A stretch of 64,000 nt of DNA, from positions 1,536,001 to 1,600,000 of the forward strand of contig JBKAGP010000001.1 in assembly GCA_046290465.1 (NCBI GenBank), read 5' to 3'. Positions 19,301 through 22,300 of this stretch are shown in pieces. Made by a program: the position numbers. Each line of letters opens with the position of its first letter. Positions within the stretch are counted from its first letter, which is position 1. Origin of the DNA: Planctomycetota bacterium (GTDB taxonomy: Bacteria; Planctomycetota; UBA1135; UBA2386).

Positions 19301-22300
19301 GACCCGCCGCGGCCCTTGCGACACTGTCCGACGCATGAGAGCATTCCGTCTCGCGTCCGGGACACGGTAGTCCCCAACCCCGGACGCGCTCCCCTAAGTA
19401 GCCTGATCTAAACCTCTTGAGTTTTTTTTGCCAACGCGGCACGGTCCTCGCTAAGAACGAAGCATGCAGATGAGAGGCCCGTTCCAGAGTGCGAGTCGGC
19501 GGGAGCCCAAGGCCCGTCCGGCAACCGGCTTCGGAGCGGGTTCAAGCAGAGAGCTGTGTGGAGAAGACACGACGCTGATGGCCTTGGTTGGCGAGACCCA
19601 GCCATCTGGCGTAGGTCGTCGATCCGGTCGGTTGCCAGTGGCGAGCTGGCAGCAGGCCTCTGCGAAGCACCCCAGGTGCTGACGCAGGTCGGCGGCCAAG
19701 GATGAGGGGTAACACCCCATTCCCACTGCCCGGCGTTCGAGAGAACGTCGGGCAGTTTTTTTTGCCGGCCGAACTGCCGATGACACCGGCATGCGGTGCT
19801 CGGTCGTCATCCCCTGCCACAACGGCGTGGAGCTGACCCGTGCCTGCCTGCAGACGCTGCTCGCGCAGACCGCGCCGCCCGACGAGATCCTGATCGTCGA
19901 CAACGCCAGCGACGACGCAACCACCGCGCTCGCCGACGAGTTCGGCCCACCGGTCCGCGTGCTGCGGCAGCAGCGCAACCTCGGCTTCGCCGGCGGCGTC
20001 AACGCGGGCCTGCGGGCCGCCAGCGGCGAAGAGCTGCTGGTGGTCAACAACGACACCCAGGCGGCCAACAACCTGATCGCCGAGCTGCGCCGCGCGCTGC
20101 ACCACAGCCCCACCATCGGTGCGGTCGCGCCGGTCAGCAACCACGTCAAGGGCGACGCCCACCTGATGGTCGGCGAGTTCGCGCGCGATCCGGAGCAACG
20201 CGAAGCGCTCGCCGAAGAACTGCAGCAGGCGCCGCTGCTGCAGGACGTCGACACGCTCGCGGGCCTGTGCCTGATGGTGCGCCGCGGCACGCTGGCCGAG
20301 GTCGGCCTGCTCGACGAACGCTTCGGCCACGGCAACTACGAGGACGACGACTTCAGCCTGCGGCTGCGCCTGCACGGCTATCGGCTGGCGGTCGCCCGGC
20401 GCGCGTTCCTGCACCACGAGGGACACGCGACGTTCCACGCGCTGGGCATCGACCTGTTCGACGAGATCGAGCGGCGTCTCGGGCAGTTCCGCGACAAGTG
20501 GCAGCACCACCCGGCCGGGCTGGCGACCATCGCCAACCTGCACAGCGACCTGCGGCTCGCCGCCGCAGCGGCCGAGGAGGCCCGGCGCCGGTGCCCGCAG
20601 TGGCTCGACGCCGACTGGCTGATCGGCCGCTTCCACGAACGCCGCGGCGACGCCGACCGCGCGATCCGCCACCTGCGCACGTTCTTGCGCCACTGCCCCG
20701 AACACGTCGAAGCCCGCCTGTTCCTCGGCACCGCGCTGCTGCGCGCCGGCCGCACCGACGAGGGCACCGCGGTGCTCGAGGCGACGCTGCGCCGGCACCG
20801 GCCGACGCGCGGCCAGGAGACCCACATGCTCGAACGGCTCGGCGAACTCGCCTACCAGCGCGGCCAGCACACCGCCGCGCTCGAGCACTTCTCGCTGGCG
20901 ACCGGGCTGATGCCCGAACGCAACGAACTGCACAACTGGCGCGGCCTGTGCCTGCTGGCGCTCGGCCGCGTTGAGGCGGCCCGGCACTCGTTCGCGCGTG
21001 CGATCGAACTGGGCCACGCGCTCGCGCACAGCAACCTCGGCGTCTGCCTGCACCGACTCGGCCACGAGGACGAGGCGTTCCGCAGCTTTGAGCAGGCGGT
21101 GGTGCTGCTGCCCGAAGACCCGATCGCGCGCGCCAACTACGACGCCGGACTGGCGGCGCGCAGCCCCGCGCCCTGCTGACCGTCCGCGAGCCGTTCGCCG
21201 ACCATGCGCGCCCGCTCGTACGCGACCACGTCGTCGACGATCGCGCGCAGCGGGGTCTCCGGCACCCAGCCGTTGGCGGCGCGCAGGCGCTCGAGCGACG
21301 GCACGCGCCGCGGCGGATCGACGAAGCCCTGCGGGAACACGTCGTGGAACGGCACGTGGTCGACGACCGAACGGCTGGCCGCCGCGGCGATCACCAGCTC
21401 GGCCAGTTCGCCGACCGAGGTCTCGAGCGCGCTGCCGACGTTGACGACGCGACCGGGCAGCGTCTTCGAACGCGCCAGGTCCAGCAGCGCCCGCGCGACG
21501 TCGTGCACGTGCGCGAAGCAGCGCGTCTGCGCCCCTTCGCCGTAGACCGTCAGCGGCTGCGCGAGCAGCGCCTGCCGCACGAACCGCGGCAACACCATGC
21601 CGTGGTCCCCGGCCTGCCGCGGCCCGACCGTGTTGAACAGGCGCACCACCACGACCGGCAGGCCCGACTGCTCGGCGTGCGCGCCGGCCAGCCACTCGCC
21701 CATCGCCTTGGCGCAGGCGTAGCCGCCGCGCAGGCCCTCGGTCGAACCCGGCATCACCGGCGCGCCCTCGACGAACGGCACCGGGCCGTCGCCGTAGACC
21801 TCACTGCTCGACGTGATCAGCGCCGGCACGCCGCGATCGGCGGCGGCCTGCAGCATCACCTCGGTCGAGCGCAGGTTGGCCTGCATCACATCGAGCGGCT
21901 CCTCGGCCAGGCGCCGCACGCCGACCACGCCCGCCAGGTGGAACACCAGATCGGCCTGCGCGACCGCGTGGCGCGCGACCTGCGGCGCCGCCGCCGACGC
22001 GACCGTCACGCGCAGCTGCGGGTGCGCCTGCACGGCGGCCAGGTTGTCGAGGCTGCCGGTCGACAGGTCGTCGACGACGTGCACCGAAAAGCCCTCGGCG
22101 AGCAGCCGCTCGACCAGGTGCGACCCGATGAAGCCGGCGCCGCCGGTGACGACGGCGCGGCACGGCTCGGTGCAAAGCGGAGCTGGCGGCGGCGTTGCGC
22201 CGGATGGAAACGGTCGGGTCATGCGCGATCAGGAACATAGAGCGTCGGCGCCACGGCGTCGCCAGTCCATGCCACTGGCTCCGCAAAACGTGACGCCGAC

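What a model noticed while it worked through the whole genome (the two positions that open the first line are those of the whole stretch)
19460..19765. Sigma-54-driven ~300-nt structured small RNA with repeated GGCGAG hairpin loops
Upstream of glycosyltransferase g01188 a -24/-12 sigma-54 promoter drives a multi-hairpin RNA of about 300 nt that ends in a strong intrinsic terminator. Two of its hairpin loops repeat the same hexamer, as in protein-sponging sRNAs.
Evidence so far: Found in 12 of 14 genus genomes and 0 of 10 others, at the same locus. In 11 sequences 90.9% of cells pair, 31 of 57 pairs have double-sided changes, 0 of 500 shuffles reach any measure. The -24/-12 boxes are kept in most rows. 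An ORF from the start site changes frame among relatives. No Rfam match.
(Added by a program. Inside this text positions count along the whole contig: contig position 1,536,001 is position 1 of the stretch shown here. "Call 12" and the like, gene names such as g00115 and contig names such as C1 are that model's own, and its searches are not shown. The text may have been shortened before it was handed on; [...] marks where a part breaks off. The agent that wrote the report below was given it as the finding of a first reader that could run no searches.)

Follow-up and report, generated by a model that had tools for sequence, protein, structure and literature searches.

The report
Sigma-54 small RNA, peptide-blind translation
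A previously undescribed ~300-base folded RNA in uncultured planctomycete bacteria has its own activator-controlled promoter and shows the same six letters on two hairpin tips, probably as bait for a protein, and where it begins with a start codon it keeps a reading frame open although the peptide sequence itself is not conserved.

Summary
Confirmed and extended. It is family-wide, not genus-limited: 48 of 91 family genomes, none real in 108 other genomes of the order. Stems covary (64 of 92 double changes kept in sister pairs) while GGCGAG stays in loops (44 of 51 in held-out folds). It is not a leader of the glycosyltransferase: each is lost without the other. No Rfam match; CsrA, RapZ, ANTAR and Ro60 do not track it; Hfq and PyrR not found in the own genome. 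New feature: 23 of 45 members start with a leaderless AUG whose frame stays open 57-95 codons and stops before the terminator, although the register shifts repeatedly and pN/pS is 0.83. Best reading: a signal-induced decoy RNA for an unidentified protein, possibly switched off by its own translation. Partner, signal and expression are unproven.

The parts
18220..19221 (-). RluA-family pseudouridine synthase (S4 + PseudoU_synth_2); divergent, constant 5' neighbour; not thought to be part of the RNA unit
   Evidence: TIGR00005 above cut-off; neighbour in 45 of 48 member loci as fetched
19348..19363 (.). Enhancer (upstream activator site): 16-bp palindrome RTCYCR-N4-YGRGAY at -115; relatives have it at about -115 and/or -137
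   Evidence: >=11 of 12 matches in 40 of 45 upstream regions with a 4-nt gap, against 4, 1, 2 and 0 of 45 for gaps 2, 3, 5, 6; present in all 8 metagenome loci; G000 has 24 sigma-54 activators
19395..19429 (.). A+T-rich stretch between enhancer and promoter, possible DNA-bending (IHF-like) site
   Evidence: seen by eye in the upstream alignment; not tested; inference
19438..19451 (+). sigma-54 -24/-12 promoter (GG-N10-GC)
   Evidence: exact GG-N10-GC in 43 of 45 members with a mapped promoter
19463..19763 (+). The small RNA (about 300 nt; start predicted 12-13 nt after the -12 C)
   Evidence: median length 307 nt, range 241-528, n=45; start site inferred, not mapped
19464..19682 (+). Leaderless ORF, 72 codons, peptide not conserved; open frame under selection
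   Evidence: no homologue or family
19476..19542 (+). P1, long variable 5' hairpin
   Evidence: length and sequence vary widely
19546..19570 (+). Conserved CAGAGAGCUG element and adjoining small hairpin (pairing ambiguous)
19572..19612 (+). P4 hairpin, first GGCGAG loop at 19590-19595
   Evidence: 8 of 10 lower-stem pairs with two-sided change; GGCGAG in 38 of 41 aligned rows, one of which is a spurious hit
19614..19697 (+). P5 multibranch domain: closing stem, P5a with second GGCGAG loop (19640-19645), variable P5b (carries GAGGUGUG...GGUGAG in 17 deeper-branching members, not here)
19700..19723 (+). P6 hairpin (G-run / C-run) directly before the terminator
19725..19763 (+). Intrinsic terminator, 14-bp stem and 8 U
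19769..19783 (+). Separate promoter-like element of the glycosyltransferase (GCCGATGA ending 7 nt before its ATG; resembles a sigma-28-type -10 box, consensus recalled)
   Evidence: GCCGA[TA] before the gene in 35 of 40 RNA loci with the gene and in 8 of 8 loci that have the gene but no RNA (7 of 8 by the regex); same element before other G000 genes
19791..21179 (+). GT2-TPR glycosyltransferase; usual 3' neighbour, separable from the RNA

Best explanation
A stand-alone, family-specific small RNA. SHOWN by comparison: one dedicated enhancer-binding protein site plus a sigma-54 promoter, a ~300-nt multi-hairpin body, a strong terminator, and independence from the downstream gene. INFERRED: when its activator is switched on the RNA is made in bulk and works in trans by presenting repeated purine-rich RGYGAG units (two GGCGAG hairpin loops, plus AGAGAG, and GAGGUG/GGUGAG in older lineages) to an RNA-binding protein, which it titrates away from its normal targets, as CsrB or GlmY do, but with a partner that is none of CsrA, RapZ, ANTAR, Ro60, Hfq or PyrR; single-domain RRM proteins are the one RNA-binding class tested that is present throughout. 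SHOWN statistically, mechanism INFERRED: in about half of the lineages the RNA begins with a leaderless AUG, ribosomes are expected to read through P1-P5a and stop before the terminator, and only the open frame, not the peptide, is selected; the most likely use is to melt or shield the loops so that the decoy is active, or stable, according to ribosome traffic.
For: Promoter, enhancer and terminator conserved. Structure; held-out folds put 44 of 51 GGCGAG in hairpin loops against 6 of 262 other GGNNNG, and 19 of 27 bodies without terminator have z<-2; in 15 disjoint sister pairs 64 of 92 two-sided changes outside the terminator keep the pair, against 4-7 of 33-57 for slid partners. Fixed loop letters on freely covarying stems, repeated 2-7 times per RNA as RG(C/T/A)GAG, is the pattern of protein-binding sRNAs (repeated GGA in Csr RNAs, PMC11882849, passages). 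Independence: RNA kept with the gene lost or cut in G007, G102, G013, G001, and no gene within 1.4 kb in G014, G023; gene kept without RNA in 8 genomes. Complements of the loops show no convincing peak at G000 start regions. Open frame: 22 of 23 AUG frames reach 60 codons against 15 of 46 other frames and 16 of 42 frames in members without a start; register differs between sister taxa; new metagenome member L206 uses the third register, open 72 codons, other frames 5 and 7; differences by codon position 71/83/77 against 88/80/148 in the control gene. Leaderless starts are common in G000. RRM proteins in 88 of 91 genomes.
Against: No partner protein was identified; RRM genes are as common in genomes without the RNA and their leaders do not conserve GGCGAG. 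Only two perfect loops per RNA, few for a sponge (Csr RNAs carry 9-25 sites, PMC11882849). G012 and G008 have GGCUAU in the first loop. 14 of 45 members have no start codon and 3 of 8 GTG-starting frames are shorter than 60 codons, so translation is dispensable; two of eight pairs show pS above pN. G088 and G045 keep promoter, enhancer, start, a 77- or 101-codon frame and an end hairpin without GGCGAG loops, and G097 and G101 keep the promoter but lost RNA and terminator. Members were found with a model that favours this structure, and alignment A3 is fitted to it. Expression is not shown.
Confidence: 0.5

Rival explanations
1. NrsZ-like base-pairing sRNA: the repeated loops (and the SD-like GAGGUG/GGUGAG of older members) pair with C/U-rich anti-SD strands in target leaders and activate or repress translation.
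For: NrsZ is a sigma-54/NtrC-driven RNA with three repeated stem-loops whose loop motif is needed to activate rhlA (PMC4253122, passages). GAGGUG and AGGUGA are complementary to the 16S tail of G000 and so mimic SD sequences. In AzuCR translation competes with pairing (PMC8915982, abstract), which would give the open frame a role.
Against: No Hfq found in G000. Loop complements show no convincing enrichment near starts in a crude set of 4242 genes. The exposed seed is only 5-7 nt. NrsZ's own pairing was not seen in vitro (PMC4253122, passage).
Confidence: 0.2
2. [quoted passage not shown]
For: In older members P5b reads AGNNA-GGUG-helix-GG-UGNNA, the layout of the RNase P module (PMC3664808, parts 1-2 of 5): exact in 3 of 17, with C for U in 3 more. 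The P5a tip resembles the 23S helix-11 tip of G000; a GGUGGCGAGAC stretch lies in G000 tmRNA and P6 resembles a T-arm.
Against: The module is absent from the window's RNA and from most members; the fifth A varies; no T-box match in G000 or at the locus. Short purine-rich resemblances arise easily.
Confidence: 0.1
3. Cis-acting leader or translation-coupled attenuator controlling read-through into the GT2-TPR glycosyltransferase.
For: Same strand, 30-111 nt upstream of the gene in 39 of 48 loci; leaderless ORF ends near the terminator; G097 and G101 keep promoter and a ~50-codon ORF but lost the terminator.
Against: Double dissociation; the gene has its own conserved promoter-like element; stop position wanders over 60 nt; I saw no conserved antiterminator pairing in the alignments (by eye).
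Confidence: 0.08
4. A fast-evolving small-protein gene whose mRNA is secondarily structured; the peptide works by composition or its N-terminus.
For: Open frame selected; G088 and G045 keep a long frame without the loops; many peptides start MQ.
Against: Repeated register changes inside the conserved region, pN/pS 0.83, no codon periodicity; 14 of 45 members lack a start; no homologues.
Confidence: 0.08

Closest known systems
NrsZ (Pseudomonas)
   Same: sigma-54 plus enhancer-binding protein, intergenic, 200-300 nt, repeated stem-loops with one conserved loop motif (PMC4253122, passages)
   Different: loop motif ACAGGCAG versus GGCGAG; NrsZ is processed into modules and acts on rhlA; no Rfam match here; no selected open frame reported in the passages I read
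CsrB/RsmZ-type protein sponges (and CrcZ, recalled)
   Same: stand-alone RNA, repeated purine-rich motif on loops, intrinsic terminator, two-component-type induction
   Different: motif is not GGA (4 GGA in the window RNA, against 9-25 in Csr RNAs, PMC11882849); CsrA in 1 of 91 genomes, one in which the RNA was not found; Hfq not found in G000
GlmY (Enterobacteriaceae)
   Same: sigma-54 promoter with palindromic activator sites upstream (PMC3045617, passages); decoy role recalled
   Different: activator site TGTC-N10-GACA versus RTCYCR-N4-YGRGAY; RapZ in 0 of 91 genomes; no Rfam match
Dual-function RNAs (AzuCR, SgrS)
   Same: a regulatory RNA overlapped by a translated ORF; translation can compete with the RNA function (PMC8915982, abstract)
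   Different: there the peptide has a function; here the peptide is unconstrained and changes register, the start is leaderless, and a third of members have no start
Rhodopirellula-1 motif (Weinberg 2010)
   Same: the only Planctomycetes motif in that paper's table (PMC2864571, passage)
   Different: a single hairpin of about 90-110 nt in the alignment rows seen (supplement passages); no likeness to this RNA by eye

Membership tests
Any Rfam 15 family | covariance-model match at gathering score | tested here: not met
   8 hits, all far below cut-off; 0 hits, 14 loci
sigma-54-dependent transcription unit | GG-N10-GC at -24/-12 | tested here: met
   43 of 45
sigma-54-dependent transcription unit | conserved upstream activator site and activators in the genome | tested here: met
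   40 of 45; 24 PF00158 proteins in G000; cognate activator not identified
sigma-54-dependent transcription unit | RpoN-dependent transcription from the predicted start | not testable with these tools
   needs rpoN mutant or start-site mapping
CsrB/RsmZ | many GGA motifs in loops | tested here: not met
   4 GGA in the window RNA; conserved loop is GGCGAG
CsrB/RsmZ | CsrA/RsmA encoded | tested here: not met
   1 of 91 family genomes, 0 in G000
NrsZ | ACAGGCAG loop motif | tested here: not met
   loops are GGCGAG; NrsZ motif from PMC4253122
NrsZ-like loop-pairing sRNA | complementary site in a target leader | tested here: inconclusive
   no convincing enrichment in G000; no cross-genome target search done
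GlmY/GlmZ | RapZ encoded | tested here: not met
   0 of 91
ANTAR-target dual hairpin / EutX-type sponge | ANTAR protein co-occurring | tested here: not met
   3 of 91 including G000, 0 of 14 other genus genomes
Y RNA | Ro60/TROVE protein encoded | tested here: not met
   0 of 91
T-box / RNase P double T-loop module | AGNNA...UGNNA in suitable topology | tested here: inconclusive
   exact in 3, C-for-U in 3, of 17 members with the old P5b motif; absent in the window RNA; no RF00230 match in G000
Housekeeping RNAs (tmRNA, SRP, RNase P, 6S) | this locus is the genome's copy | tested here: not met
   tmRNA, SRP and RNase P lie elsewhere; a 6S candidate below cut-off lies elsewhere
Dual-function RNA | conserved, functional small protein | tested here: not met
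   register switches, pN/pS 0.83; function itself untested
Dual-function RNA | ORF is translated in vivo | not testable with these tools
   inferred from the selected open frame only
Protein-sponge sRNA (works like) | direct, motif-dependent binding of a protein | not testable with these tools
   no RNA-protein assay available
Cis-regulatory leader | obligate linkage to the downstream gene | tested here: not met

The most novel reading that the evidence does not exclude
A new class of decoy RNA in a lineage without CsrA or RapZ (and without Hfq in the one genome tested): it titrates an as yet unknown global RNA-binding protein that reads RGYGAG loops, and it is gated by ribosomes that enter at a leaderless AUG and plough through the binding loops on a frame whose peptide is irrelevant, so that the RNA integrates a sigma-54 signal with the cell's capacity for leaderless translation.
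Probability: 0.2. Interest if true: 0.85.

Novelty: new variant of a known kind. Interest (0 to 1): 0.65.

Why it matters
I found no description of this RNA (paper searches; Rfam), and the family lacks the RNA-binding regulators through which such RNAs normally act. It is therefore ready-made bait to find how these planctomycetes regulate genes after transcription. The selected but peptide-blind reading frame is a clean natural case for asking whether translation itself, not its product, can tune a structured regulatory RNA: lineages with AUG, with GUG and with no start exist side by side. The conserved enhancer gives a direct route to the inducing signal.

Tried and rejected
Expression: 4 of 12 listed runs were laid on 18200-21200. 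Run X1 (RNA status only a guess) has one 232-nt contig, 19477-19708, one difference, no loose ends, lying inside the predicted RNA; X2 (recorded as RNA) holds only a piece of RluA, X6 only a piece of the glycosyltransferase, X3 is probably DNA of a relative. One study, contigs only: this is below the tool's own 'weak hint', and the uncovered parts and depths say nothing. Partners rejected: CsrA, ANTAR (44, 46, 47), RapZ (101), Ro60 (113), Hfq and LSM (75, 45; own genome only), PyrR (112; own genome only; loop resemblance recalled). RRM autoregulation: a GGCGAG hairpin in one G000 RRM leader is not conserved in 40 relatives' leaders. Paralogues: none in G000. Beyond the family: 9 weak hits in 108 other-family genomes were a tRNA, terminators or coding DNA (only 20 candidates scored per genome, so distant forms can be missed); a loose pattern over 401 phylum genomes hit 32, 20 of 37 matches were fetched and none scored with model R2; viral contigs 0. 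Regulon: scans of G000 for the enhancer found no clear second promoter with the same layout, so the activator and signal stay unknown. Second G104 hit (L078) and terminator-only hits in G086, G087 were dropped. G084 (promoter ambiguous), G023 (none found) and G077 (found later) are left out of the n=45 counts. K-turn and antiterminator readings were considered by eye and dropped. Peptide searches found nothing. Earlier-finding look-ups gave nothing on this RNA. Supplements were consulted only for PMC2864571; unseen supplements of motif-discovery or metatranscriptome papers could hold this RNA.

Full report
THE OBSERVATION. The stretch lies between a divergent RluA-family pseudouridine synthase (18220-19221, minus) and a GT2-TPR glycosyltransferase (19791-21179, plus). 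It holds a GG-N10-GC box at 19438-19451, a multi-hairpin body and a 14-bp terminator with eight T. It folds far better than shuffles (z -6.38) with GGCGAG in two hairpin loops. Rfam gives only chance hits. tmRNA, SRP and RNase P RNA are elsewhere in the genome, as is a sub-threshold 6S candidate. There is one copy. The host is a planctomycete: a family-specific pattern hit 5 records among all GTDB genomes, all titled Planctomycetota.

DISTRIBUTION. BLASTN found it in 13 of 14 other genus genomes and, at the same locus, in three other genera. A covariance model from 17 sequences gave full-length hits in 40 of 91 family genomes, including all 14 other genus genomes. Fetching the region beside RluA in 39 further genomes added G080, G081, G084, G059, G023, G019 and G069. 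A second model, trained partly on these, found G077, which was not in training and has promoter, loop, terminator and both neighbours. The total is 48 of 91. In 108 genomes of other families of the order the 9 weak hits were not homologues. Eight metagenome contigs matched a pattern, all in the RluA-RNA-glycosyltransferase context; three distinct new sequences were among them.

PROMOTER. 43 of 45 members with a mapped promoter have exact GG-N10-GC. Upstream there is a 16-bp palindrome, RTCYCR-N4-YGRGAY, at about -115 and/or -137, two helical turns apart: 40 of 45 at 11 or 12 of 12 matches, against 0-4 of 45 for other gap lengths. The motif was derived from these same regions; as a held-out check all 8 metagenome loci carry it, while G077 has half-sites but no full site. 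The genome encodes 24 sigma-54 activators. This is the layout known for glmY (PMC3045617, passages read) with a different site. Which activator binds is unknown.

STRUCTURE. On 17 sequences 90.2% of cells pair, 31 of 57 pairs show two-sided change, no shuffle of 500 reaches any measure, and slid partners fall to 34-45%. That structure came from one of the sequences, so two less circular tests were made. In 27 members not used for the model, folded singly, 44 of 51 GGCGAG sit in hairpin loops against 6 of 262 other GGNNNG, and 19 of 27 have z below -2 without the terminator. In 15 disjoint sister pairs, 64 of 92 two-sided changes outside the terminator keep the pair, against 4-7 of 33-57 when slid (alignment fitted to the model). 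P4, the P5 closing stem, P5a and the terminator are well supported; the small 5' hairpins are not resolved. The first loop is GGCGAG in 38 of 41 rows and the second in 30 of 41, with some misaligned and one spurious row. Seventeen deeper members carry a further conserved GAGGUGUG, often followed by GGUGAG, in P5b. The repeated unit is thus better written RGYGAG.

NOT A LEADER. The glycosyltransferase follows in 40 of 48 loci, but the RNA persists where the gene is gone (G007, G102), reduced to fragments (G013, G001) or not within 1.4 kb (G014, G023); two loci end at contig ends. Conversely 8 genomes have the gene 130-235 nt from RluA with no RNA and no sigma-54 box. A GCCGA[TA] element stands before the gene in 35 of 40 RNA loci and in those 8, and before other G000 genes; it resembles a sigma-28-type -10 box (recalled). 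Against this reading, G097 and G101 keep the sigma-54 promoter but lost RNA and terminator, so there the promoter may serve the gene.

THE OPEN FRAME. 23 of 45 members have ATG 11-15 nt after the -12 C, that is at the predicted start; 8 have GTG and 14 neither. Leaderless starts are usual in G000: ATG sits at this place in 11 of 46 strong sigma-54 boxes against 3 of 46 in a control window, and TANNNT peaks 12-16 nt before starts. In all 23 the frame is open for 57-95 codons and stops 60-118 nt before the RNA end, in P5b or P6 and never in the terminator. 22 of 23 reach 60 codons, against 15 of 46 other frames and 16 of 42 frames of members with no start. Shuffles stay open that far with mean probability 0.24 (the threshold was set after seeing the data, and kin are not independent). 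The register at the first loop differs between sister taxa (G005/G007, G094/G095, G014 versus the G011 clade, and G006, G024, G098; my reading of the tree, at least six changes), and in five members the frame in use is the only open one across the core. L206, found afterwards, uses the third register and is open for 72 codons while its other frames close after 5 and 7. The peptide shows no constraint: pN/pS 0.83 and differences by codon position 71/83/77 over 8 pairs, against 0.50 and 88/80/148 in the first 100 codons of the glycosyltransferase over 5 of 7 pairs; two pairs do have pS above pN. It has no homologue. So where ribosomes can enter, reading through to P5b is selected and the product is not. 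GTG starts are looser (5 of 8 reach 60 codons), and L202, 95% identical to a GTG member, has lost the start, so an alternative is that early termination is merely harmful once an AUG exists.

MECHANISM. Fixed purine-rich loops on freely covarying stems, repeated, in a terminator-bounded, activator-driven RNA is the signature of protein decoys such as the Csr RNAs (PMC11882849, passages). The known partners fail: CsrA 1 of 91, RapZ 0 of 91, ANTAR 3 of 91, Ro60 0 of 91; Hfq and PyrR were not found in G000, which is 94% complete. RRM proteins occur in 88 of 91 genomes, and in Bacteroides an RRM protein binds and titrates sRNAs (PMC11697453, passages), but nothing here ties them to this RNA. I put the decoy reading at 0.5. 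Loop pairing as in NrsZ (PMC4253122, passages) is the main rival (0.2); tRNA-elbow or rRNA mimicry through an AGNNA...UGNNA module (PMC3664808, parts 1-2 of 5 read) fits a few old members only (0.1); attenuator and small-protein readings get 0.08 each. That the RNA is a real stand-alone transcript I put near 0.9. For the role of translation, AzuCR shows that ribosomes on an overlapping ORF can compete with RNA function (PMC8915982, abstract); here that is an inference.

NOVELTY. Five paper searches (listings seen) and Rfam show no description; the one Planctomycetes motif in PMC2864571 is a short single hairpin (passage and supplement passages). Subscription papers are not covered. It works like sigma-54-driven repeated-loop sRNAs but belongs to none tested, and the peptide-blind open frame is a feature I did not find reported in these searches. 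Verdict: real, new family, new variant of a known kind; interest 0.65; expression, partner and signal remain to be shown.

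Noticed in passing
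G000:C1 RRM genes at 2893158-2893373, 3039419-3039634, 511140-511355, 3083049-3083264, 1197681-1197896; relatives L162-L201: The single-domain RRM genes have long leaders with blocks conserved across genera (a CCCUUU...AAAGGGUGAAGUGAUCGUC hairpin before one paralogue; a shared TCGCGTGCGTATG block before two others): candidate cis-regulatory RNAs.
   Followed up: partly
window 19769-19783; G000:C1 near 2544258, 1450704, 3102175 (minus strand): A GAACTGCCGAT-type element 7-14 nt before the start of several genes suggests a small regulon of an alternative (sigma-28-like) sigma factor with leaderless or short-leader mRNAs.
   Followed up: no
G000 whole genome: Leaderless genes look common: TANNNT peaks at 12 nt before the ATG (143 of 4242 crude starts) and ATG follows 11 of 46 strong sigma-54 boxes directly.
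   Followed up: partly
L094 (G088), L105 (G045): Same locus with promoter, enhancer, start codon, a 77- or 101-codon frame and an end hairpin but no GGCGAG loops: diverged or replaced versions of the RNA.
   Followed up: partly
L082 (G097), L080 (G101): sigma-54 promoter retained, RNA and terminator lost, a 50-54-codon ORF ends just before the glycosyltransferase.
   Followed up: partly
L020:1374-1749 (G002): A 15-nt unit containing the CAGAGAGCUG element is tandemly amplified about four times, in frame with the leaderless ORF.
   Followed up: no
L113:396-923 (G019): A second hairpin with a U-tract lies between the sigma-54 promoter and the RNA core, so this member may be split or have an inserted RNA.
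   Followed up: no
L034, G000:C1:83211-83420: 6S RNA candidate below the Rfam cut-off (27.9 bits, E 0.002).
   Followed up: no
G000:C1:4633203-4634012 (minus): Response regulator with an ANTAR domain near a phytochrome-like kinase and a heme-oxygenase-like ORF (judged from the translations by eye); ANTAR occurs in only 3 of 91 family genomes.
   Followed up: no
window 17415-18395 (minus): ORF whose C-terminal part looks like a methylthioadenosine phosphorylase by eye; the reading I scanned had a wrong upstream extension and gave no family hit.
   Followed up: no
window 28523-28598 (minus) and 10026-10101 (minus): tRNA-Gln and tRNA-Asn genes.
   Followed up: no
G000:C1:3083613-3083672 and 6144786-6144863: Short direct repeats containing the enhancer half-site GTCCC, one of them upstream of an RRM gene.
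   Followed up: no
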